A stretch of 26,336 bases of DNA, taken from positions 1-26,336 of the IMG/VR virus record IMGVR_UViG_2695420403_000013. One strand, given 5' to 3'. This document shows, piece after piece, positions 5,706-26,336 of the stretch. The notes under the pieces are model-generated. The model searched no databases. It worked only from the letters and a program-made list of their open reading frames with translations, and had not been told where the DNA came from. The DNA comes from a virus. Taxonomy: Duplodnaviria; Heunggongvirae; Uroviricota; Caudoviricetes. The stretch's first letter is position 1. Every line of letters starts with the position of its first letter. Made by a program: the position numbers and the translations under genes.

Positions 5706-6512
5706 ATGAGTGTTATGAATCCAATAAGTTCTAATATATTTAATGCTGAATTTTTAAACACCCCGGCAGCGGCACTTGCCGCATGGATTTCCATTATTGG
5801 AGCTGTTATAACTTTGGTGACGATAGTTATAAGAGCACTATTCAAATATAGAAAATCTCATGATGTAATTTTGAAAAAATCAGGAATACCTGCGTTTATA
5901 TTAAATTTTTTTCTTATACGAATATCATTAAAAAGGCTGCCTACTATCACATGGGCTGAAAAATCAATCACGGTTCTCTTTTCACTTCTTTTTTTGTGTG
6001 CAATTTATATTTTTGGTCCAGTTTTCATCCAAGCCATTAGAACCCCACCAAATAGCACATTGCTTTATTGGATAAAGTCCGGTGAATCATTTTATATGTC
6101 AAAAAAACTGGCGACTGCAGCTACAATATTAACCACTCCTGATTGGGAAATATCAAAGGATGATTGCGAAGAGTCATCCTCTGCCAGTACAGAGAAGTAC
6201 AAATCATTAACTATCGAACATAAAGAAATTCTTTGTAAACTACTAACCACTGATGAAGGGAATGCTTACATTGATGAAGAAGTCAAGAATTTCGTTAAAG
6301 ACAAATTCTTTATCTATTCCTTTGCCCCAACAACCATATTTATTCTATTATGGATTTCTTTGGGTTTTATACTGACCATTCACTATTCTAAAAAAGTTAG
6401 GAAATATATTCTGACTGAACAAAAAAATGCAATTCATTGGGCATATGGTGAATTCAAGACAGAAGGAATCTATTCAATATATCAAGAGTTAGAACGTAAG
6501 ACTCACCATTAA
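5706..6512 (+). CDS. Cargo gene: multi-pass inner-membrane protein of unknown function
   Basis: 268 aa, AT-rich, opposite strand to the flanking late operons. AGGTGG ribosome-binding site before the ATG. About 4 hydrophobic helices plus a ~90-aa acidic soluble loop. Confidence 0.6.
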   Translation: MSVMNPISSNIFNAEFLNTPAAALAAWISIIGAVITLVTIVIRALFKYRKSHDVILKKSGIPAFILNFFLIRISLKRLPTITWAEKSITVLFSLLFLCAIYIFGPVFIQAIRTPPNSTLLYWIKSGESFYMSKKLATAATILTTPDWEISKDDCEESSSASTEKYKSLTIEHKEILCKLLTTDEGNAYIDEEVKNFVKDKFFIYSFAPTTIFILLWISLGFILTIHYSKKVRKYILTEQKNAIHWAYGEFKTEGIYSIYQELERKTHH

Positions 6513-12027: not shown

Positions 12028-13794
12028 ATGAACACCACACTGACACCCGCAGATCTCGATCCCCGTCGGCAGGCCATGCTGCTGTACTTTCAGGGATACC
12101 GCGTAGCCCGCATTGCTGAAATGCTGGGCGAGAAAGTTGCAACCGTTCACAGCTGGAAAAAACGCGACAAGTGGGGTGACTATGGGCCGCTGGATCAGAT
12201 GCAGCTCACCACCGCCGCACGCTACTGCCAGCTCATTATGAAGGAGCACAAAGAAGGGAAAGATTTCAAAGAGATTGACCTGCTGGCGCGCCAGTCTGAG
12301 CGCCACGCGCGGATCGGCAAGTTTAACAATGGCGGCAACGAAGCCGACTTAAACCCTAACGTCGCCAACCGCAACAAAGGCCCGCGCCGTCAGCCTGAAA
12401 AGAATGTTTTCACCGATGAACAGATTGAGAAGCTGGAAGAAATTTTCCATTCCTCCATGTTCAACTACCAGCGCCACTGGTGGGAAGCCGGAAAAACCAA
12501 CCGCATCCGCAACCTGCTAAAGTCACGCCAGATCGGCGCGACCTTCTATTTTGCCCGTGAAGCCCTGATTGACGCCCTGCTTACCGGACGTAACCAGATT
12601 TTCCTTTCTGCCAGTAAGGCACAGGCTCACGTCTTTAAGCAGTACATCATCGATTTCGCCAAAGAAGTCGAGGTGGAGCTGAAAGGTGATCCGATGGTGC
12701 TTCCTAACGGGGCCACGCTTTACTTCCTCGGCACCAATGCCCGCACGGCCCAGAGTTACCACGGCAACCTGTATCTGGATGAATATTTCTGGATACCGAA
12801 ATTCCAGGAGCTGCGCAAAGTGGCTTCCGGTATGGCTATTCACAAAAAATGGCGACAGACCTATTTTTCCACACCATCCAGTCTGACACACAGTGCTTAT
12901 CCGTTCTGGTCCGGTGCGCTGTTCAACCGAGGGCGCAACAAAGCCGATAAGGTGGACATCGACCTGTCCCACAGCAATCTGGCCCCCGGCCTGCTGTGCG
13001 CAGACGGGCAGTACCGCCAGATAGTCACCGTGGAAGATGCGGTGCGGGGCGGCTGTAACCTGTTCGACCTCGACCAGTTGCGCATGGAGTACAGCCCGGA
13101 CGAATACCAGAACCTGCTGATGTGTGAGTTTGTGGACGATCTCGCGTCCGTGTTCCCGCTCAGCGAGCTGCAAGCGTGCATGGTGGACAGTTGGGAAGTC
13201 TGGACCGACTTTCATGCACTGGCCCTGCGCCCGTTTGGCTGGCGCGAAGTGTGGATCGGTTATGACCCGGCAAAAGGTACGCAGAACGGCGACAGTGCCG
13301 GATGCGTGGTGGTGGCACCGCCAGCCGTGCCGGGTGGTAAGTTCCGCATTCTTGAGCGTCACCAGTGGCGCGGGATGGACTTCCGCGCCCAGGCTGACGC
13401 CATCAAAAAACTGACCGAGCAGTACAACGTGACCTACATCGGCATCGACTCGACAGGTGTCGGCCACGGGGTTTACGAGAACGTGAAAGCGTTTTTTCCA
13501 GCCGTCCGGGAGTTTGTCTACAACCCCAACGTTAAAAACGCCCTGGTACTCAAGGCCTACGACATTATCAGCCACCGCCGTCTGGAGTTTGACGCCGGAC
13601 ACACCGACATTGCGCAGTCATTCATGGCAATCCGTCGCGCAACCACCGCCAGCGGCAACCGCCCGACCTATGAAGCCAGCCGCAGCGAAGAAGCCAGCCA
13701 CGCCGATCTGGCCTGGGCAACGATGCACGCATTGTTTAACGAACCGCTGCAGGGCGAATCCGCCAATACCAGCAATATTGTGGAGATTTTTTGA
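12028..13794 (+). CDS. P: Terminase large (ATPase) subunit, gpP-like
   Basis: 588 aa, divergent from the O-N-M-L operon. Stop overlaps the Q start. Confidence 0.9.
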   Translation: MNTTLTPADLDPRRQAMLLYFQGYRVARIAEMLGEKVATVHSWKKRDKWGDYGPLDQMQLTTAARYCQLIMKEHKEGKDFKEIDLLARQSERHARIGKFNNGGNEADLNPNVANRNKGPRRQPEKNVFTDEQIEKLEEIFHSSMFNYQRHWWEAGKTNRIRNLLKSRQIGATFYFAREALIDALLTGRNQIFLSASKAQAHVFKQYIIDFAKEVEVELKGDPMVLPNGATLYFLGTNARTAQSYHGNLYLDEYFWIPKFQELRKVASGMAIHKKWRQTYFSTPSSLTHSAYPFWSGALFNRGRNKADKVDIDLSHSNLAPGLLCADGQYRQIVTVEDAVRGGCNLFDLDQLRMEYSPDEYQNLLMCEFVDDLASVFPLSELQACMVDSWEVWTDFHALALRPFGWREVWIGYDPAKGTQNGDSAGCVVVAPPAVPGGKFRILERHQWRGMDFRAQADAIKKLTEQYNVTYIGIDSTGVGHGVYENVKAFFPAVREFVYNPNVKNALVLKAYDIISHRRLEFDAGHTDIAQSFMAIRRATTASGNRPTYEASRSEEASHADLAWATMHALFNEPLQGESANTSNIVEIF

Positions 13795-14822
13795 TGGGAA
13801 AGAGTAAGAAGAACCGCGCTGCGGCGACGAAACAGATCCAGCTTAAAAGCCAGACTACAGCCGAAGCATTCAGCTTCGGCGATCCCGTTCCTGTTCTGGA
13901 CCGCCGAGAACTGCTGGACTATGTGGAATGCGTACAGATGGACCGCTGGTATGAGCCGCCCGTCAGCTTTGACGGACTGGCACGAACCTTCCGCGCCGCC
14001 GTGCATCACAGCTCACCAATTGCGGTGAAATGCAACATTCTGACCAGTACCTACATCCCTCACCCGCTGCTCAGCCAGCAGGCTTTTTCACGTTTTGTGC
14101 AGGACTATCTGGTATTTGGTAACGCCTACCTGGAGAAACGCACGAACCGCTTCGGTGAAGTTATCGCCCTTGAACCGGCCCTGGCAAAATACACCCGACG
14201 CGGGTTAGACCTGGATACCTACTGGTTTGTGCAATACGGTATGACAACACAGCCGTATCAGTTCACGAAAGGCAGCATCTTTCATCTGATGGAACCGGAC
14301 ATCAACCAGGAGATCTACGGCCTGCCCGGCTATCTTTCTGCCATTCCGTCAGCCCTGCTCAATGAGTCCGCCACGCTGTTCCGCCGCAAGTATTACATCA
14401 ACGGCAGCCATGCAGGCTTCATCATGTATATGACCGACGCCGCACAAAACCAAGAGGATGTGAACAACCTCCGCAATGCAATGAAAAGCGCCAAAGGACC
14501 AGGTAACTTCCGCAATCTGTTTATGTACTCGCCTAACGGCAAAAAGGACGGACTTCAGATTATCCCGTTATCAGAAGTCGCGGCGAAGGATGAGTTTCTG
14601 AACATCAAGAACGTGAGCCGGGATGACATGATGGCAGCGCACCGCGTGCCGCCGCAAATGATGGGGATTATGCCGAATAATGTTGGGGGGTTTGGGGATA
14701 TAGAGAAAGCCAGTTGCGTTTTTGTGCGAAATGAGTTAATTCCTTTACAAAAAAGACTTGTAGAAGTTAATATTTGGCTAAAGAAAAAAATAATAGCCTT
14801 CAAAGATTATTCATTGAATTAG
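13791..14822 (+). CDS. Q: Portal protein, gpQ-like
   Basis: 343 aa. The last ~35 codons switch to AT-rich sequence, suggesting a chimeric 3' end at the junction with cargo DNA. Confidence 0.85.
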   Translation: MMGKSKKNRAAATKQIQLKSQTTAEAFSFGDPVPVLDRRELLDYVECVQMDRWYEPPVSFDGLARTFRAAVHHSSPIAVKCNILTSTYIPHPLLSQQAFSRFVQDYLVFGNAYLEKRTNRFGEVIALEPALAKYTRRGLDLDTYWFVQYGMTTQPYQFTKGSIFHLMEPDINQEIYGLPGYLSAIPSALLNESATLFRRKYYINGSHAGFIMYMTDAAQNQEDVNNLRNAMKSAKGPGNFRNLFMYSPNGKKDGLQIIPLSEVAAKDEFLNIKNVSRDDMMAAHRVPPQMMGIMPNNVGGFGDIEKASCVFVRNELIPLQKRLVEVNIWLKKKIIAFKDYSLN

Positions 14823-14833
14823 ATAAAATGTGT

Positions 14834-14853
14834 GGGGGGGATGAAAATCCCCC
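14834..14853. terminator. Stem-loop between the convergent Q and KAP NTPase genes
   Basis: GGGGGAT-gaaa-ATCCCCC, sitting between the Q stop (14822) and the NTPase stop (14861). Confidence 0.4.
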
Positions 14854-14860
14854 TCCCAAA

Positions 14861-16543
14861 TTACAAATACCGTCTAACACGTATTTTATTAATCTTCGAC
14901 TCATTTCCAATTCTTATCAAAGCATTTCTCGCTTTTTCTCCGATGCGTTTCATTCTATCTGAACCATTGCTATACCCACCAAACTTAAGAGCAGTGGCTA
15001 TTATTGAATCACCACCTTCAAGAATGACTTTTTTAAATAAATCATAGTAGTCATCCTCTGAGGCAGCATCCAATATTTCCTCGTGCCTATCAGACCAACC
15101 ATTCTGACTTGATAATTTTATTAGAACATCCTTTATAGAACCATCCAGATTTAAAGTAATAGAATAATCTTGGATTTTTGACTTTAACTCAGCATCTTTT
15201 ATAGGATGAACATTCATGTAAATAGATTGGACATATTCCTTAAGAGCATCATTGCCGTAATTAATAAATTTACTTATTAATTCACTTGCTTTAATATTTT
15301 CATCTAAATCTCTATACAGTCCGACAACACTATCCAAGTCACTTGGAGTTACATACTCTATCCCACCAACCACCGCTTGATATAGATTATCAACGACCTG
15401 ATTTCGGTTATCTTCAAATGAATTATAGAAAAGCTTCCATGCTTCAAACAGTGAACCTCGCTTACTATCACGGATAAGTTCATCATTTCTTAGACTTACT
15501 TGCCTTTGAAAATTGTTCATATCAATATATCCATGCTTAACCATGTCTATAAGGACTTCATCAAGTTCGTTTGTTTTTTTATAACCATATATAAGCAAAG
15601 TATTAAGCCATTTTTTTCCTTTTCCATCCTCTTTTTCATCACGCACATAGATATTTCTCATATTTCTAATATACTCCAATGATGGTACATCTCCATCTGG
15701 AGTAAATGCGTAATGACTCCAACAATACAAAGTTAAGGAGCGTGCGACTTCATTTGCAATTTTATCAAAATTAATGTTAATAGCAGGTAACAAGGCTAGC
15801 AAAAACCGCTCTATTTTTTTCAGTATCCGAATATTTTTAATACCTAGAGAAATGGAGTATTTGCTTAATAATTTATGAACATCAGAATTATTTTTATATG
15901 CTATAGCTGCACATTCTTCTGGCGTAGGGTTATAGGTAATCTCTCTATCAATAACCTTTTCTTTATAAGTGGAGTAATCATCCATACCACTTGTCCCATT
16001 ATTAAGTAAAAGAACCACCTTACAATTTTTTTGTTCTTTCAATAAAGAAACCAACCCTAAGACATCTTTCACTTCTAAATTTTTACCACGTCTTTCTAAG
16101 TCATCTATGACTACAATAACATTAGTAATTGACATAAATGACATTGACTCAAGTGTCGTAGCGAAATTTTTCACAACAGGTGTTTCTTTTAACAAACGAG
16201 CGGTCTTTCTAGTGCAGGATTCAAGAAGTCCCTTTGTATTTTGGGTTGCTGTTTTTAAATTAGGTTTATTTCCAATAAAATCTTTTGTAATTGTATTTTC
16301 AAAGATGGAATATTTTAATGCGTCCAATGAATTAACACCAAAAAGAGAGACGTAACTATATCTATTAAATGCAATCTTATTCTTATTTTCCTTTAAGAAA
16401 GTATTCCAAGTATAGGTTTTCCCAATCCCCCATTCACCCTGAATAGCCATTACCTCAGGTTCTGCAGATGAAATAAAGTCTGACAACTGTTCTTTAATAT
16501 AGTCCAATGACATGCACATTCTCCGAGATAGATAGTCATCCAT
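14861..16543 (-). CDS. Cargo gene: KAP-family P-loop NTPase (PifA-like), candidate anti-phage/exclusion protein
   Basis: Walker A QGEWGIGKT (Trp-containing G-x-W-G-x-G-K-T typical of KAP NTPases) and Walker B VVIDDLERR. AT-rich. Probable true start is ATG 16511-16513 (GGAG ribosome-binding site), downstream of a TATAAT at 16544-16549. Confidence 0.6.
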   Translation of the reverse strand: MDDYLSRRMCMSLDYIKEQLSDFISSAEPEVMAIQGEWGIGKTYTWNTFLKENKNKIAFNRYSYVSLFGVNSLDALKYSIFENTITKDFIGNKPNLKTATQNTKGLLESCTRKTARLLKETPVVKNFATTLESMSFMSITNVIVVIDDLERRGKNLEVKDVLGLVSLLKEQKNCKVVLLLNNGTSGMDDYSTYKEKVIDREITYNPTPEECAAIAYKNNSDVHKLLSKYSISLGIKNIRILKKIERFLLALLPAININFDKIANEVARSLTLYCWSHYAFTPDGDVPSLEYIRNMRNIYVRDEKEDGKGKKWLNTLLIYGYKKTNELDEVLIDMVKHGYIDMNNFQRQVSLRNDELIRDSKRGSLFEAWKLFYNSFEDNRNQVVDNLYQAVVGGIEYVTPSDLDSVVGLYRDLDENIKASELISKFINYGNDALKEYVQSIYMNVHPIKDAELKSKIQDYSITLNLDGSIKDVLIKLSSQNGWSDRHEEILDAASEDDYYDLFKKVILEGGDSIIATALKFGGYSNGSDRMKRIGEKARNALIRIGNESKINKIRVRRYL

Positions 16544-16580
16544 ATTATAACCCGAGTACTATCAAAGTAATAAGCGCGCG

Positions 16581-16599
16581 CTCGTATCCCCGCCACGCC
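16581..16599 (-). other. Candidate cos (cohesive-end) site
   Basis: The - strand reads GGCGTGGCGGGGAtacgag; the first 13 nt match the P2/186 cohesive-end sequence as I recall it (GGCG(A/T)GGCGGGGAAAGCA). Orientation relative to Q is as in P2. Confidence 0.45.
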
Positions 16600-16640
16600 T
16601 GCCCGCTTTATGTAGTGGTTTTCATGCAGGTGCATGATCT

Positions 16641-16941: not shown

Positions 16942-17367
16942 ATGAAAAGCTTTTACGTATTAATTTTAATTCTGGTTGCAAGCTTTGTTAGCGTCCCAGT
17001 TCAGGCGGTAACAGCTAAAAACTATGAGAAAGGAACTAAAGCTCAACAGAAATCAATATCTTACCTTTCATGTGCATTCTATGGCAGTAGCACACAATTA
17101 GATCCTAGCTACACGGAGCAAGTACCTACAGCCGATATCAAGATATTACAGAAAGCAGCTTACCACGCTTACAACGATGCGCTCTCATACTTTGGCTATG
17201 AGGAACCAGATCACGAACAACGCATAATTGATTATGCTGAATTTGTGGCGTCGCAAGAAGCTGTGTTATGGGATAAGCCGGGAATGAATGGAAAGCAGGT
17301 AACACTAATTGCTCGTTCTCTCTACAATGAGAGTAACTGTAACTTGTTACTGGACTCAATTAAGTAG
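16942..17367 (+). CDS. Cargo gene: small secreted/periplasmic protein, unknown function
   Basis: 141 aa. Signal peptide MKSFYVLILILVASFVSVPVQA, GAGG ribosome-binding site, AT-rich. Confidence 0.6.
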   Translation: MKSFYVLILILVASFVSVPVQAVTAKNYEKGTKAQQKSISYLSCAFYGSSTQLDPSYTEQVPTADIKILQKAAYHAYNDALSYFGYEEPDHEQRIIDYAEFVASQEAVLWDKPGMNGKQVTLIARSLYNESNCNLLLDSIK

Positions 17368-18112: not shown

Positions 18113-20527
18113 TTAATACAGGTTTCGCCACTTATCATCTTCCTGCAAACGCTGGTTCCGATAGAAGATACGCAGGCCTGCTCCTGACGGAATACTGCCG
18201 CCGCGAAGGAGTAAATCGACCTCTTTCTCGCTGCCATTAAATCCTCTGGACTTCAGTTCATAGACGAGCTGCTGTCGCTGATGGTCTGTAATTCGCTGTT
18301 TGTAGTCTTTACGCCGTTTCGGTTTCACCAGGCGTAACCTTGCAGCCAGTTCCCGGCGCTCTTTTTTGCTCATACTGTGCAGGTAATCGTGCAACTCCTT
18401 GTCATCCATGCGGGTAATGTCCGTCCTAGTATCCCCATCAGCTGATTTGTCTTTCCCTTGTTGGTTCAAATTTTCAGCAAGGGGACAGTTATTGCCACGA
18501 GTCCAAGGGGCGCAAGCGCCCTGGTCGGCTGCCGCCTCCTGAACGTCAACGGCTTTACGAACCATTTTCCACTTCACTGCATGAGTGCAGATCTTGCCCT
18601 CTGCAATGGGTGACCAGATGCCATAAATACGAATACCGTGATCGCCATAGGCGGTCGGCTCTTCATTGATTTCATAAGCGGTTCTGATCAAGTGATATTT
18701 GCGAGGAACCAGCACGCCGCCCTGCCTCATAATGTAGGTGGCAAAACAGCCAGCATCAGCAGCAGCCAGGATGGCATCAAGGCGCGGGTTATCCAGTACC
18801 GGCGCACCTGCTTTTTTGTCACCCTGCTGCCTTGCCGCCTGACCAGCCAACAACCGCAGTTCACGGTAAGCCTGACGCCCTGGAATACCAAAGAAGCGGA
18901 ATTGCTGAACACGATGCAGAGACGCCCAGGCATTAACGTATTCAGCGTTATCACGCAGGGATTTACCCGTTTCCTTGCTGATCTCGCCAGCCAGACCACG
19001 CCCGTCAATGTTCTTACTGATGTATTTCGCGATGTAGCTTGTTGGCGTACCTTTGCGCGGGTTAATCAACTCAGACTTAAAGCGTGGTCCTGTGTTATTA
19101 CCCAGCTCCTCGCGGTCTTCACGAATGGCAAACTTACGCAACAAAGCAGTAATGGCGCGGCGATCTTTTTTGCGCATAAAACACAACAGGTGCCAGTGAA
19201 CTGTACCGTCATGATGCGGCTCAGCCACCCGCACGCCATACCAGCGCAATCCGGCTTTGTGCATCGCCTTACGAAATGCAGCAAACATGCCGACCAGATA
19301 ATCACTGCTTTGTCTTACCGTCGCATTTGTCCAGGTCGGGTTGGGCCTGCCGTTATTTAGCGTGGAATGGAAACGTGACGGACAGGTGATGGTGTAGAAA
19401 ACGGCGCAGTCACCGCGCATTTCCGCGATAAGCTCCAGACCTTTAACACATGCCATCATCTCATTGCGGCGATGCGCCGGGTTGCTACTACTGGCGTTTA
19501 CCACATCTTCCATATCCAGCGTGTCGCCGTCTTCGTTCACCAGTTCATGAGAACGGAAAAACTCCAGCGACTTACGGCGCTGCTCACGTTTATGCATCAC
19601 GGCTTCATAGCTGACATAGGGAGATGCTTTTTTGCTGACCAGGCAGACAGCACGCAACTGCTCTTCCCGCCATTCACAACGCATCTTCCACAATTTCCGA
19701 TACCACCAGTCGGCGCACAACATACGCGCCAGCGAACCCGGAATGAGTTCATAGGGCACGGGTTTACGGCGGTTTCTTTTCCGGCGGAGTTGCTCAAACG
19801 CAGGCGGTATGACATCCAGTCGCAGGGTTTCTGCTGCCACCTTTTCCCATGTCTTGCGGATTTCTTCTGGCTTAACATCATCGGTGGCATACAAATCACC
19901 ACAAGCGGCATCAAGACACATACTCATATGCGCAGCGACAAGAGTAGACAGGCGTTTCACCTGATCCTGACTCATTTCAGGCAAGATCAGCAGGCCGTCC
20001 AGCCCTTCATGGCTTGCCATAAAGCGAAAAGAAGTGGATAGCTGACTGTCGCGTACATGCTCCAGTCGTTCCAGACATGGCTTAATCGTCTCACGCAAAT
20101 AGCGGGAATAAGCCTTTGGCCTGCCCAGGCTGCTGAAGTATTCAATACGTTGCATCAGCGGCTTGCTGATATGGGAAGGCTGGGCGTTAACGTCCGCCAG
20201 TATGACCATGTCCGGATTAAAACGCTGCTGCTCATGCGCCAGCTTTGCCCGGCTAATGAGCTTATCCTGCTCCATTTCGCGCTGGACAGGATCACGTGAT
20301 TCATTAAAAAAATAACGCTCCCAGACCTGATCACTCAGTGCCTCGCGGCGCAACTGTTCCTGCTCGTTATCGGCAGCGTACAGAGTGATCTGGTTTGAAA
20401 GCGCAGAAACCGGCGCAACTTCCGCCGGGTCCAGATAAGGGTTAATGGCCTTTTTCGGACTGTTCCATGAGAACGCTGCGGCAGCCTCGTTAAAGCCGCA
20501 GCAGTTGCTCATATCGGCATGGCTCAT
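18113..20527 (-). CDS. A: Replication initiation protein (gpA-like rolling-circle endonuclease)
   Basis: 804 aa, size and position as P2/186 A. ATG overlaps the Dam stop (ATGA). Confidence 0.85.
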
Positions 20528-23270: not shown

Positions 23271-24215
23271 ATGTCAACTCAAAAATTCACATTTCGCCAT
23301 ATGAATGACGATATGAAAGCCGTTGTCATACAGAATCGCGGTGGTCAGAAAGTAATTGAGCGGATACTCATGGCTTATGGCTTCAAGTCACGCCAGGCAT
23401 TCTGTAACCATCTAGGTATTTCCCAAAGCACGATGGCTAACAGATATGCCCGCGATACATTTCCTGCAGATTGGGTAGTTATCTGCTCAATGGAAACAGG
23501 AGCATCAATTAAATGGCTAGCATTTGGTTCAGATGATGACGAGCAAATGCCATCCCCTTCACCAGAACAACATGTTGAAACACACTCCGAAGATGGTTCT
23601 TATCATGATGTTCACTATAAACAACAAAAGTTCGACAATGAAAACTCCGTTGATTTTTCTCGAGGTGGCAAGGAAGCAATAGAACGAATTGTTAAGGCTT
23701 ACGGTTATAAGACGCGCCAAGCCTTAGCTGATCACTTAGGTATTTCAAAAAGCACATTAGCCACAAGATATATGCGTGATGTCTTTCCTTCAGACTGGAT
23801 AATTAAGTGCGCTCTAGAAACGGGTACTTCACTAACGTGGCTAACTACTGGTAAAGGCCCAAAGTTTGACGATGCAAGAAATGATGTAATTGCTATTACA
23901 CGCAAAAAAATCACTGATGGGAATCTATTTGAGTCAGATTTCTATATGCTTGATAAAGCATTAATACCAGACTCAATCCAATTACCACTGATTGTCAGTA
24001 CCCCAAAAAAAACATACCTATGTGATCAGTCATTTGATGAAATTACAGATGGTAAATGGATTGTTGAAATAGAAGGAAAAGTGAGCATTCGAACCCTAAC
24101 TAGGATACCTGTAGGAAGATTAAAAATCTCAGACAATTATTTATCGTTTGAATGTAATATTTCAGACATTGATGTTATTGCTAAATGCAAATTTTTGCTT
24201 ATAGAAGAATTATAA
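23271..24215 (+). CDS. cI: CI-type immunity repressor with a tandemly duplicated N-terminal HTH domain
   Basis: 314 aa. Two ~70-aa repeats (IERILMAYGFKSRQAFCNHLGISQSTMANRY...METGASIKWL and IERIVKAYGYKTRQALADHLGISKSTLATRY...LETGTSLTWL), each resembling the 186 CI N-domain, plus a CI-like C-terminal domain. Confidence 0.7.
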   Translation: MSTQKFTFRHMNDDMKAVVIQNRGGQKVIERILMAYGFKSRQAFCNHLGISQSTMANRYARDTFPADWVVICSMETGASIKWLAFGSDDDEQMPSPSPEQHVETHSEDGSYHDVHYKQQKFDNENSVDFSRGGKEAIERIVKAYGYKTRQALADHLGISKSTLATRYMRDVFPSDWIIKCALETGTSLTWLTTGKGPKFDDARNDVIAITRKKITDGNLFESDFYMLDKALIPDSIQLPLIVSTPKKTYLCDQSFDEITDGKWIVEIEGKVSIRTLTRIPVGRLKISDNYLSFECNISDIDVIAKCKFLLIEEL

Positions 24216-24227
24216 GAGGATATTGGA

Positions 24228-25202
24228 ATGGCCGGTTCCAATTGGAAAGATAATAGTGAAGAATATATCTCTAGAATCATTAAACTAGAGGAATTAAAAT
24301 CATATTTATCCGATAGTGTCTATAATGATTTGAAAAAACTATTGAATTCTTTAAAGTTTAATGAATTCGATGTGCTTTTTGATGTTTACAGTAAATATTT
24401 TTCTAAAAAATATAATTGTGAGCACATTAACCCCGAACGCACATCCTTAAAAAATAGTGAGATAGATGATTACATTTCAAAAATCACTAAATTAGAGCAT
24501 AAAGTGCGTGAATTGCAAAAAATCCATAACTCTCATTCAGAGCAAATGGAAAAGTTGAATGAAAAATTATTAAATGAAATGGAAAGTAAAAAAAAACTAG
24601 CATCACAGCTAGATTTCCAACACGCCAAAAACAATGAGCTAAAGCTTCAAAACCAAGAACTTTCAAGCAAAATCCAACAAAATAAAATTGACGAAAAAGT
24701 TCCTAAATATGTGCAGGGCGTCAAAGAAAAACTACAGCAGGATGATAAAGATTTCACTGCAATGTCTTACAATTGGGCGATAGCCGGAATACTATTTTCA
24801 TTATTATCTATAAGTGCCGCCTTTTTAACATTTTTTTATAAAATAGATATAAAAGATACTACCCCCATTGAACTTTTTTATTATTTCACTAGGGGCTTGC
24901 TTGGGGTTGCATTACTTTCTTGGCTTTCTTATTTTTGTTTAAACAATTCAAAAAAATACACACATGAAGCAATCATAAGAAAAGACAGACAACATGCTCT
25001 AATGTTTGGTGAAGTCTTCTTACAAATTTATGGTTCAACTGCGACAAAACAAGATGCTATTGATGTGTTTAAAGATTGGAACATGTCTGCTAATTCTGCA
25101 TTCGCAGATAAAATGCAGCCACCTCCAAATTTATTTAACATTCTAGGTACACTTGTAGATAAAAAATCAGCAGCAAATGATGACAGCATTACCAAAAAGT
25201 GA
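24228..25202 (+). CDS. Cargo gene in the lysogenic operon: coiled-coil plus two-TM membrane protein, unknown function
   Basis: 324 aa, AT-rich. Starts 13 nt after the cI stop with an AGAGGA ribosome-binding site. N-terminal ~170 aa heptad-rich and charged; helices WAIAGILFSLLSISAAFLTFFY and LLGVALLSWLSYFCL. Confidence 0.6.
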   Translation: MAGSNWKDNSEEYISRIIKLEELKSYLSDSVYNDLKKLLNSLKFNEFDVLFDVYSKYFSKKYNCEHINPERTSLKNSEIDDYISKITKLEHKVRELQKIHNSHSEQMEKLNEKLLNEMESKKKLASQLDFQHAKNNELKLQNQELSSKIQQNKIDEKVPKYVQGVKEKLQQDDKDFTAMSYNWAIAGILFSLLSISAAFLTFFYKIDIKDTTPIELFYYFTRGLLGVALLSWLSYFCLNNSKKYTHEAIIRKDRQHALMFGEVFLQIYGSTATKQDAIDVFKDWNMSANSAFADKMQPPPNLFNILGTLVDKKSAANDDSITKK

Positions 25203-25283: not shown

Positions 25284-26336
25284 ATGGCAGTACGAAAACT
25301 CACCACAGGAAAATGGCTTTGCGAATGTTACCCCGCCGGACGTAGTGGGCGTCGTGTGCGTAAACAATTCGCCACCAAAGGCGAAGCACTGGCTTTTGAG
25401 CGTCACACGATGGAAGAAACCGAAGCAAAGCCCTGGCTGGGCGAATCAGTAGATCGTCGAACCCTGAAAGACGTGGTTGAGCTATGGTTCAAACTACATG
25501 GTAAATCTCTGACTGCTGGGCAGCATGTCTATGACAAATTGCTGCTGATGGTTGACGCTCTGGGCAATCCCCTTGCAACCGATCTCACATCTAAAATGTT
25601 TGCCCATTATCGAGATAAACGACTGACAGGTGAGATCTACTTCAGCGAGAAATGGAAGAAAGGAGCCAGCCCGGTCACCATTAACCTAGAGCAAAGCTAT
25701 CTAAGTAGTGTTTTTAGCGAACTATCCCGCCTGGGCGAATGGTCATATCCAAACCCACTGGAGAACATGCGAAAATTCACCATCGCAGAAAAAGAGATGG
25801 CATGGCTTACCCATGAGCAGATTGTTGAATTACTGGCTGATTGCAAACGTCAGGACCCAATTCTGGCACTGGTAGTTAAGATATGCTTAAGCACAGGCGC
25901 ACGCTGGCGAGAAGCCGTAAATCTTACTCGTTCACAGGTGACCAAATACCGAATTACCTTTGTAAGAACGAAGGGGAAGAAAAACAGAAGCATCCCTATC
26001 AGTAAAGAGCTTTACGAAGAGATCATGGCGCTTGATGGGTTCAATTTCTTCACAGACTGCTATTTTCAATTTTTATCCGTGATGGAAAAAACGTCTATCG
26101 TGCTCCCTCGCGGTCAACTCACACACGTTCTGCGCCATACGTTTGCGGCGCACTTCATGATGTCGGGTGGAAACATTCTGGCCTTACAAAAAATTCTCGG
26201 ACACCACGATATAAAAATGACTATGCGTTACGCACATCTGGCACCGGATCATCTGGAAACGGCGCTCCGTTTCAATCCTCTGGCAACGCTGCCAAGTGGC
26301 GACAAAGTGGCGGCAGCGGTTGGCATTACCCCGTAA
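25284..26336 (+). CDS. int: Tyrosine integrase (P2/186 Int family)
   Basis: 350 aa. C-terminal catalytic motifs ...HVLRHTFAAHFMMSGG...LGHHDIKMTMRYAHL. GGAGGG ribosome-binding site. Ends at the window edge. Confidence 0.9.
   Translation: MAVRKLTTGKWLCECYPAGRSGRRVRKQFATKGEALAFERHTMEETEAKPWLGESVDRRTLKDVVELWFKLHGKSLTAGQHVYDKLLLMVDALGNPLATDLTSKMFAHYRDKRLTGEIYFSEKWKKGASPVTINLEQSYLSSVFSELSRLGEWSYPNPLENMRKFTIAEKEMAWLTHEQIVELLADCKRQDPILALVVKICLSTGARWREAVNLTRSQVTKYRITFVRTKGKKNRSIPISKELYEEIMALDGFNFFTDCYFQFLSVMEKTSIVLPRGQLTHVLRHTFAAHFMMSGGNILALQKILGHHDIKMTMRYAHLAPDHLETALRFNPLATLPSGDKVAAAVGITP

What the first reader, a model, noticed from the sequence alone, without database searches (positions are those of the whole stretch)
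14700..16600. KAP-type P-loop NTPase inserted between the portal gene and cos
A 560-aa protein with the Trp-containing Walker A (GEWGIGKT) and DDLER Walker B, which I recognise as the KAP NTPase signature (the family of F-plasmid PifA, a T7 exclusion factor), followed by ~400 aa of helical sequence with no recognised effector. It occupies ~1.7 kb of AT-rich DNA between Q and the cos-like site, where P2 has only ~100 bp as I recall, and the Q 3' end is chimeric. Its promoter (TATAAT at 16544-16549) lies ~35 bp from cos, so the gene would sit at the extreme end of the packaged genome. This is the best candidate in the window for a prophage-borne defence gene.
Basis: partly seen in the sequence, partly recalled or inferred. 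Interest (0 to 1): 0.75.

Follow-up and report, generated by a model that had tools for sequence, protein, structure and literature searches.

The report
Prophage KAP-type NTPase defence candidate
A P2-like prophage carries, in its known swappable cargo slot beside the DNA-packaging site, a single 550-residue ATPase gene that is very probably an untested anti-phage defence gene of an already recognised kind, so it is a sound but unsurprising candidate.

Summary
A 560-codon ORF (14861-16543, minus strand) lies in 33% GC DNA between portal gene Q and a cos-like site (16581-16599). It has GEWGIGKT and DDLER motifs. The real start is almost certainly codon 11 (ATG 16513-16511), giving 550 aa.

The protein passes Pfam KAP_NTPase. 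It has no membrane helices and is not a PifA orthologue. Its best PADLOC match is the untested candidate family PDC-S49.

Its NTPase half is homologous to Reve, a single-gene system from the P4 satellite cos hotspot that blocks T1-like phages. Its C-terminal 310 residues are conserved, all-helical and resemble no enzyme.

The gene is swappable cargo. Related phages share Q and the cos core but carry DUF4145, Hypoth_Ymh or AIPR genes in the same slot, and P2 has 167 bp there. About 127 of 1,274 E. coli genomes with matching flanks carry it.

The gpA-gpQ interval is the published P2 defence hotspot, and a near-identical protein is already listed there as 'KAP_NTPase'. I found no test of this family.

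Best reading: a stand-alone sensor-switch NTPase defence gene. This is a new member of a known kind, of modest interest.

The parts
14861..16513 (-). Coding sequence of the KAP-type P-loop NTPase (550 aa plus stop), read from the Met11 start
   Evidence: ORF. Start supported by the alignment of 39 homologues, all beginning MS[LVI], by RefSeq's 550-aa call, and by loss of the upstream ATG in allele L020. dN/dS against the 77%-identical allele is 0.14.
16514..16543 (-). Ten-codon 5' extension of the maximal 560-codon ORF, probably untranslated leader
   Evidence: Not conserved in any homologue. ATG 16543-16541 reads ACG in L020.
15794..16513 (-). N-terminal NTPase module (residues 1-240): five-stranded P-loop core, a helical insert between Walker A and Walker B, and a lid carrying the NIR motif
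16415..16438 (-). Walker A, GEWGIGKT (residues 26-33)
   Evidence: G26, W28, G29, G31, K32 and T33 are invariant in 40 sequences.
16091..16105 (-). Walker B, DDLER (residues 137-141)
   Evidence: I136, D137, D138, L139, E140 and R141 are invariant.
14864..15793 (-). C-terminal all-alpha domain (residues 241-550), proposed sensor or scaffold with no recognisable enzyme fold
16544..16549 (-). TATAAT, candidate -10 element for the NTPase gene
   Evidence: Conserved in the 77%-identical allele. There is no good -35 and the promoter scan did not call it.
16521..16524 (-). GGAG ribosome-binding site, 7 nt upstream of the Met11 ATG
   Evidence: Sequence. AGGAG is conserved in L020, and AGGAG or GGGA in the Salmonella and Pantoea alleles.
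16581..16599 (-). cos-like 19-mer GGCGTGGCGGGGATACGAG (left cohesive end of the packaged genome)
   Evidence: Identical to the annotated cos region of phage Cartapus. P2 cosL occupies the equivalent position.
16573..16580 (-). CGCGCGCT, the last conserved bases next to cos. The cargo module begins at about 16572.
   Evidence: All slot variants (KAP alleles, DUF4145, Hypoth_Ymh) share sequence up to CGCGCGC and diverge immediately after it.
14700..14822 (+). Low-GC chimeric 3' end of portal gene Q, the left boundary of the swapped module
   Evidence: Identity profile, GC step, and Q C-termini that differ between phages carrying different cargo.
13794..14822 (+). Portal gene Q, convergent with the NTPase gene
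   Evidence: Pfam Phage_portal and RefSeq annotation of the near-identical locus.
14834..14857 (.). G7/C-rich hairpin between the two convergent stop codons, possibly a bidirectional terminator
   Evidence: Sequence. Folds at -15.8 kcal/mol (minus strand, followed by ACACAUUUUAU) and -18.3 kcal/mol (plus strand, z -2.9). The terminator scan did not call it.

Best explanation
The gene is accessory cargo of a P2-like prophage. It sits in the Q-to-cos part of the known gpA-gpQ defence hotspot and encodes a stand-alone, soluble KAP-clan P-loop NTPase that most likely protects the lysogen against other phages.

Shown:
- It is an intact 550-aa gene under purifying selection.
- It belongs to a large family with a fixed architecture.
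- It lies in a module exchanged by recombination between the 3' end of Q and the 8 bases flanking cos.
- Its NTPase half is homologous to that of Reve, an experimentally active single-gene system of the P4 cos hotspot.
- Its C-terminal half is a conserved helical domain with no enzyme-like fold.

Inferred mechanism:
1. The gene is transcribed in the lysogen from its own AT-rich upstream region, 31 nt from the cos end.
2. The faster-evolving helical C-terminal domain recognises a phage protein or infection cue.
3. That recognition switches the NTPase (Walker A K32, Walker B D137/D138/E140, conserved R229 in the NIR motif) into an NTP-dependent oligomeric or active state.
4. No nuclease, TIR, protease or pore domain is present. 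The output is therefore either NTP consumption or NTP-driven sequestration or remodelling of a complex the phage needs.

Whether the outcome is abortive infection or direct inhibition is open.
For: Gene and motifs. Pfam KAP_NTPase above cutoff. PADLOC PDC-S49 at 85.7 bits. PHROG 4740, full-length, unknown function. Purifying selection, dN/dS 0.14.

Family: 1,717 representative clusters at E<=1e-30. The top 150 are nearly all full-length single-architecture proteins of about 520-630 aa.

Cargo status:
- Only 127 of 1,274 E. coli genomes with matching flanks hold the gene.
- The same slot holds DUF4145, Hypoth_Ymh or AIPR/Abi-alpha genes in related phages.
- P2 has a 167-bp gap there.
- Module boundaries are mapped.
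- 44%-identical homologues occupy the same slot in Salmonella and Pantoea P2-like prophages.
- More distant homologues lie beside toxin-antitoxin genes in an SSU5-like phage-plasmid and a Burkholderia phage, and beside an integrase in Pseudomonas.

Hotspot: described, with validated systems, in PMC9122126. WP_053877087, the protein of the 99.8% DNA-identical locus H1, is listed there as KAP_NTPase.

Validated relatives:
- Reve NTPase homology, hhalign 97.8%, E 8.8e-13. Reve gives 40- to 400,000-fold protection against Drexlerviridae.
- KAP NTPases fused to unknown C-terminal regions defend E. faecalis and need both Walker B and the C-terminal region (PMC13552941).
Against: - There is no experimental test of this protein or its family. 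Accession searches found no paper. It is absent from Rousset's table of tested systems.
- PDC-S49 is only a candidate family, and the match covers profile positions 9-442 of 624.
- Homology to Reve stops at the NTPase module. The C-terminal domains are unrelated, so the phenotype cannot be transferred.
- No effector domain is recognisable.
- The promoter is only a -10 hexamer.
- The hotspot also carries non-defence cargo such as partition systems and toxins (PMC9122126).
Confidence: 0.68

Rival explanations
1. It acts like PifA, by abortive infection. On sensing a phage protein, the NTPase associates with the membrane and causes permeability or ATP loss, killing or arresting the infected cell.
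For: It is in the same Pfam family as PifA and has the same Walker motif forms. PifA also lacks membrane helices by the same hydropathy scan. PifA triggers depolarisation and nucleotide leakage, as summarised in PMC13001434.
Against: It does not match the PADLOC PifA profile, which PifA itself hits at 963 bits. hhalign to PifA gives only 30% probability over 68 columns. There is no pifC-like neighbour. The one KAP defence protein tested for this, EF_KAP, was not abortive (PMC13552941).
Confidence: 0.2
2. It is a direct, effector-less inhibitor. It would be an ORC/Cdc6/TnsC-like ATPase that assembles on invading phage DNA or on a replication or packaging complex and blocks it without harming the host.
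Confidence: 0.15
3. It is accessory cargo with a non-defence role, for example prophage maintenance or addiction, interference with the P4 satellite, or a host-fitness factor.
For: The gpA-gpQ hotspot also carries partition systems and a cytolethal distending toxin (PMC9122126). The function of this family is untested. The position next to cos is shared with P4, which parasitises P2 packaging.
Against: The motifs are not those of a ParA-type partition ATPase. The family recurs next to toxin-antitoxin and defence-type genes on unrelated mobile elements. It matches a PADLOC candidate family, and a relative of its NTPase module is a validated defence gene.
Confidence: 0.12
4. It is a core phage ATPase for packaging or replication, or a decaying pseudogene.
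For: It lies beside the portal and terminase genes and has an AAA+-like fold resembling ORC/Cdc6.
Against: It is absent from P2 and from about 90% of related prophages and is replaced by unrelated genes in close relatives. The phage has its own terminase P and replication protein A. The ORF is intact, keeps all family-invariant residues and has dN/dS 0.14.
Confidence: 0.03

Closest known systems
Reve (pFD425, 'UnknownSys7'), a single-gene defence system of the P4 satellite hotspot (bioRxiv 10.64898/2026.02.27.708500)
   Same: - It is a single gene of similar size (586 against 550 aa).
- It lies directly next to the cos site of a P2/P4-family element. The synthesised fragment contains the P4 cos sequence just after the stop codon.
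- The NTPase module is homologous: hhalign 97.8%, BLASTP 27% identity over 229 aa. Shared motifs are GEWGxGKT, Y[IV]S..G.NSL, IDDLER, KEKVI and NIR.
- It has the same weak Pfam and structure signature: KAP plus AAA_22, with human ORC as top structural hit.
- It also hits PADLOC PDC-S49.
   Different: The C-terminal 300 or so residues show no detectable similarity. Reve is carried by the satellite, not the helper phage. Reve is experimentally active against Drexlerviridae, whereas this protein is untested.
PADLOC candidate family PDC-S49
   Same: It is the best defence-database match: 85.7 bits, E 8e-25, over residues 16-444 of the 560-aa ORF. All tested members of this family and their distant phage and plasmid relatives hit it as well.
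   Different: The match covers only profile positions 9-442 of 624, at a modest score. This is a sister family rather than a clear member. PDC-S49 is an untested candidate, and no paper mentions it.
PifA of the F plasmid (T7 exclusion), the founding bacterial KAP NTPase
   Same: Both are in Pfam family PF07693. Both have the Trp-containing Walker A and a DDL[DE]R Walker B. Both are soluble with no membrane helices, have a long helical C-terminal region and are carried on a mobile element.
   Different: PifA scores 148 bits on the Pfam KAP model against 37 here. There is no PADLOC PifA or QatA hit here. Profile comparison aligns only 68 columns around Walker B. PifA is 741 aa and is co-transcribed with the repressor gene pifC, whereas this gene stands alone.
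[quoted passage not shown]
   Same: They follow the same design: a KAP NTPase followed by about 300 residues resembling nothing known. Walker B and the C-terminal region are both required for defence.
   Different: EF_KAP has two membrane helices, and this protein has none. They come from Gram-positive hosts and were found through linkage to serine recombinases.
P2 old and tin, and other cargo of the gpA-gpQ hotspot (Rousset et al. 2022, PMC9122126; Vassallo et al. 2022, PMC9519451)
   Same: It lies in the same cos-adjacent variable locus of P2-like prophages. It is low-GC, single-gene or small-operon cargo expressed from the prophage.
   Different: old and tin lie on the gpA side of cos, at the right end of the packaged genome. 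This gene lies on the Q side, as the first gene at the left end. The proteins are unrelated.

Membership tests
KAP family P-loop NTPase (Pfam PF07693) | Match to the family profile above the curated gathering score | tested here: met
   37.4 bits against a cutoff of 20, E 2.3e-9. It covers only profile positions 6-229 of 293. PifA scores 148.5 bits.
KAP family P-loop NTPase (Pfam PF07693) | Walker A of the form GxWGxGK[ST] and Walker B of the form hhhhDDL[DE]R | tested here: met
   GEWGIGKT and VVIDDLER here, GAWGSGKT and VVMDDLDR in PifA. These residues are invariant in 40 family members.
KAP family P-loop NTPase (Pfam PF07693) | Transmembrane helices associated with the NTPase domain | tested here: not met
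   The highest 19-residue Kyte-Doolittle mean is 1.41, so no membrane helix is predicted. This feature is not universal: PifA is reported to lack them (PMC13001434) and also scores low (1.27).
KAP family P-loop NTPase (Pfam PF07693) | Helical repeat or accessory region C-terminal to the NTPase | tested here: met
PifA (F-plasmid T7 exclusion protein) | Match to the PifA-specific profile and full-length homology | tested here: not met
   No PADLOC PifA hit at E<=0.01, whereas PifA hits at 963 bits. hhalign gives 30% probability over 68 columns.
PifA (F-plasmid T7 exclusion protein) | Operon with the repressor gene pifC | tested here: not met
   On F, pifC lies immediately upstream of pifA. Here the upstream neighbour is cos and the downstream neighbour is the convergent Q gene.
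PifA (F-plasmid T7 exclusion protein) | Exclusion of T7 triggered by gp1.2 and gp10, with membrane leakage | not testable with these tools
   Needs phage challenge experiments.
PADLOC PDC-S49 (candidate single-gene system) | Full-length match to a PDC-S49 profile | tested here: inconclusive
   85.7 bits, E 8e-25, profile positions 9-442 of 624. The C-terminal third is unmatched. Family members score 75-100 bits.
Reve (P4 hotspot system) | Homologous NTPase module | tested here: met
   hhalign 97.8%, E 8.8e-13, 224 columns. BLASTP 27% identity over 229 aa.
Reve (P4 hotspot system) | Homologous C-terminal domain (same full-length architecture) | tested here: not met
   No significant alignment beyond residue 245 or so.
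Reve (P4 hotspot system) | Protection against Drexlerviridae | not testable with these tools
   Phenotype reported for Reve only.
Cargo of the P2 gpA-gpQ defence hotspot (Rousset et al. 2022) | Located between replication gene A and portal gene Q, next to cos | tested here: met
   Q 13794-14822, NTPase gene 14861-16513, cos 16581-16599, gene A 18113-20527.
Cargo of the P2 gpA-gpQ defence hotspot (Rousset et al. 2022) | Variable occupancy among otherwise similar phages | tested here: met
   Alternative cargo in Cartapus, vB_EcoM-813R9 and Klebsiella phages, with Q 88-98% identical. 127 of 1,274 E. coli genomes with matching flanks carry the gene. WP_053877087, the protein of the 99.8% DNA-identical locus H1, is listed in Table S5A.
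STAND / AVAST-type NTPases | NACHT or NB-ARC type NTPase domain with a repeat sensor and a fused effector | tested here: not met

The most novel reading that the evidence does not exclude
The family may be an effector-less defence in which the NTPase itself and a new helical domain do the work. For example, an ORC/TnsC-like ATP-dependent assembly could form on incoming phage DNA or on a phage replication or packaging complex and block infection without killing the host. The gene is also the first gene at the left end of the packaged genome, with its upstream region wholly inside that end. It could therefore be expressed immediately on injection, before circularisation, and protect the newly infected cell as well as the lysogen.
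Probability: 0.12. Interest if true: 0.6.

Novelty: new member of a known kind. Interest (0 to 1): 0.3.

Why it matters
If active, this would add a widespread family to the small set of KAP-type single-gene defences. The family has about 1,700 clusters at 50% identity and occurs across Gammaproteobacteria, in prophages, phage-plasmids and genomic islands. No mechanism is known for any soluble KAP-type defence protein.

This family and Reve share an NTPase module but have unrelated C-terminal domains. That makes a natural domain-swap pair for asking which half senses and which half acts.

The mapping also shows that the published gpA-gpQ hotspot is really two slots separated by cos. The Q-side slot exchanges cargo by recombination between the last 100 nt or so of Q and the 8 bases flanking the cohesive end. 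That is a small refinement, not a new principle.

Tried and rejected
- A search for the P2 cohesive-end sequence with up to 3 mismatches found nothing. The site is of the Cartapus type, with 5 differences from P2. It was located by reading the sequence and aligning to Cartapus and P2.
- NCBIfam gave no family. A profile search of PDB sequences gave nothing meaningful.
- Foldseek against the AlphaFold database was not available, so no full-length structural neighbours outside the PDB were obtained.
- hmmsearch of the family profile against Reve returned nothing because the bias filter removed it. BLASTP and hhalign were used instead.
- A literature search for 'PDC-S49' and for four RefSeq accessions returned no papers. 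The 2004 paper that defined the KAP family is not in the library, so the defining features are taken from a later summary and from Pfam.
- Packaging or replication ATPase was considered and rejected on distribution and on the presence of the phage's own P and A genes. ParA-like partition ATPase was considered and rejected on motifs.
- HEPN or other nuclease motifs were looked for in the C-terminal domain by eye. None is conserved.
- The intrinsic-terminator and promoter scans did not call either the hairpin at 14834-14857 or the TATAAT.
Full report
**1. Observation**

The window is a P2-like prophage. Terminase gene P (12028-13794), portal gene Q (13794-14822), replication gene A (18113-20527), Dam methylase, CI repressor and integrase are all recognisable. 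A near-identical prophage (99.8% over the queried stretch) sits next to rcdA-ybjJ in E. coli USDA-ARS-USMARC-50748.

Its GC content is 0.327, against 0.565 for P and 0.537 for most of Q. GEWGIGKT and DDLER are present and invariant across the family.

Reading the minus strand gives GGCGTGGCGGGGATACGAG at 16599-16581, then CGCGCGCT, then TATAAT at 16549-16544, directly followed by the first ATG of the ORF. The 19-mer and its flank are identical to the annotated cos region at the start of the phage Cartapus genome, and they align with P2 cosL.

**2. Corrections to the anatomy**

- All 39 aligned homologues begin at the position of Met11 (MS[LVI]...).
- RefSeq annotates 550 aa.
- GGAG lies 7 nt upstream of that ATG.
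- In the 77%-identical allele the upstream ATG is ACG, while TTATAAT and AGGAG are kept.

The protein is therefore 550 aa (14861-16513). TATAAT is positioned to give a leader of about 24 nt. There is no acceptable -35, and the consensus scan did not call this site. The promoter is plausible but unproven.

A G7/C-rich hairpin at 14834-14857 lies between the convergent Q and NTPase stop codons.

**3. It is swappable cargo**

Against Cartapus and vB_EcoM-813R9, Q is 88-98% identical up to about 14690. Identity is 0.78 in the 14691-14750 bin and about 0.5 after that. It returns only at the cos core. GC drops at 14700, and the last 25 residues or so of Q differ between phages with different cargo.

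On the other side, every variant shares sequence through ...GATACGAGCGCGCGC and diverges at once. The module is thus about 14700-16572.

In the same place:
- Cartapus carries a DUF4145 gene as gp01.
- vB_EcoM-813R9 carries a Hypoth_Ymh gene.
- Klebsiella P2-like phages carry an AIPR/Abi-alpha-like gene.
- P2 has 167 bp with the tQ terminator.

Among 5,426 complete E. coli genomes, 1,274 match some part of the query and 127 hold at least 80% of it.

The gpA-gpQ interval was described as a hotspot of anti-phage systems by Rousset et al. 2022 and again by Vassallo et al. 2022. WP_053877087, the protein of that 99.8% DNA-identical locus, appears in Rousset's Table S5A under the label KAP_NTPase. 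It does not appear in their table of tested systems.

**4. The protein**

Pfam KAP_NTPase is passed at 37.4 bits against a cutoff of 20, with weak AAA_22 and AAA_16 hits. NCBIfam gives nothing. PHROG 4740 (unknown function) matches full-length at E 3e-143. PADLOC gives the candidate family PDC-S49 at 85.7 bits over profile positions 9-442 of 624, and no PifA or QatA hit.

There is no membrane helix.

An AlphaFold2 model (pLDDT 83.5) shows a five-stranded P-loop core. It has a helical, partly low-confidence insert between Walker A and Walker B (residues about 60-130), and everything from about residue 198 onward is helical.

**5. The family**

An exhaustive profile search finds 1,717 representative clusters at E<=1e-30 and 5,407 at E<=1e-3. 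The best 150 are nearly all full-length proteins of about 520-630 aa with the same architecture; a few are truncated.

Members at 43-46% identity occur in Salmonella, Pantoea, Cronobacter, Serratia, Proteus, Vibrio, Shewanella, Aeromonas and Pseudomonas. Their contexts are:
- The Salmonella and Pantoea members sit in the same Q-cos slot of P2-like prophages.
- A Pseudomonas member lies by an integrase and an AlpA gene.
- 27%-identical relatives lie in SSU5-like phage-plasmids next to a GNAT/DUF1778 toxin-antitoxin pair, and in Burkholderia phages next to a RelE-type pair.

dN/dS between the window allele and the 77%-identical allele is 0.14. The C-terminal half evolves about twice as fast as the N-terminal half, and long-range identity is 31-39% against 59-61%.

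**6. Relation to known systems**

PifA (741 aa, F plasmid) shares the Pfam family and the motif forms. Profile comparison aligns only 68 columns at 30% probability, and the PifA-specific model is not matched. This protein is a KAP-clan relative, not a PifA family member.

A 2026 preprint reports Reve, a single KAP-type gene from the P4 satellite hotspot. It reduces plating of Drexlerviridae 40- to 400,000-fold. I took its sequence from the deposited synthesis file and compared it:
- The NTPase modules are clearly homologous: hhalign 97.8%, E 8.8e-13; BLASTP 27% identity over 229 aa.
- They share the motifs GEWGxGKT, NSL, IDDLER, KEKVI and NIR.
- The C-terminal halves are unrelated.
- Reve also hits PDC-S49.

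A 2026 PLoS Biology paper shows that KAP NTPases fused to unknown C-terminal regions defend Enterococcus. Both Walker B and the C-terminal region are required, and the mechanism is not abortive for the one protein tested. Tmn, a membrane P-loop NTPase of the YobI family, acts through ATP turnover and plasmolysis.

**7. Mechanism**

The shown facts are the anatomy, the cargo status, the selection, and the homology of the NTPase module to an active defence gene.

The inferred model is a sensor-switch NTPase. The faster-evolving helical domain binds a phage cue. NTP binding or hydrolysis then drives a change of state. The output is NTP consumption or NTP-driven capture of a needed complex, because nothing else catalytic is present.

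The abortive (PifA-like) and direct (ORC/TnsC-like) versions cannot be separated with these tools. I put about 0.68 on 'stand-alone anti-phage defence gene' and much less on any one output.

**8. Novelty and verdict**

The hotspot, the KAP label for this protein and the class of KAP single-gene defences are all published. What is not published, as far as the library shows, is any test of this family. Also unpublished is the finding that its NTPase module is shared with Reve while its C-terminal domain differs.

It is a new, untested member of a known kind. Interest is modest.

Noticed in passing
window 5706-6512 (+): A 268-aa ORF with Pfam DUF6216 (45.6 bits) lies in a 33-35% GC island inside the tail and baseplate gene block. 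This is the position of the second P2 hotspot (Z/fun) noted by Vassallo et al. There is no PADLOC or PHROG hit. The near-identical prophage L001 carries a different 583-aa hypothetical gene there.
   Followed up: partly
window 24228-25202 (+): A 324-aa ORF in 29-32% GC DNA lies between the CI repressor (23271-24215) and the integrase (25284-26336). It has no Pfam or PADLOC family and matches PHROG 2628 (unknown function). It is a third accessory slot and another possible defence candidate.
   Followed up: partly
window 16942-17367 (+): A 141-aa ORF on the gpA side of cos has a signal-peptide-like N-terminus (MKSFYVLILILVASFVSVPVQA). It has no Pfam family and matches PHROG 7437 (unknown function). 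The same protein (WP_000834899) recurs 32 times in the stored part of Rousset's hotspot table, next to many different cargo genes.
   Followed up: partly
window 16573-16640 (-), with L002, L003, L005, L013, L020: cos divides the published gpA-gpQ hotspot into two independent slots. The Q-side slot has sharp junctions, inside the last 100 nt or so of Q and 8 nt beyond the 19-nt cohesive end. All cargo genes seen there are transcribed away from cos and convergent with Q.
   Followed up: yes
Rousset et al. Table S5A (PMC9122126, supplementary file 6): Other proteins labelled KAP_NTPase occur in the same hotspot in different arrangements. WP_000552033 occurs with a hypothetical partner, and WP_113421891 occurs next to a PIN_12 protein. 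This suggests several KAP lineages, some with partner genes. They were not compared with the window protein.
   Followed up: no
L008 2368-5474 and L009 118-3185 (Shewanella and a metagenome): In a non-prophage context, the 44%-identical homologue is followed in the same direction by three small conserved ORFs (152, 117 and about 160 aa) with no Pfam family. These could be partners in that lineage. They are absent from the P2 slot.
   Followed up: no
window 14834-14857: A G7/C-rich hairpin lies between the convergent Q and NTPase stop codons. It folds at -15.8 kcal/mol on the minus strand and -18.3 kcal/mol on the plus strand, and may be a bidirectional terminator. The terminator scan did not call it.
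   Followed up: partly
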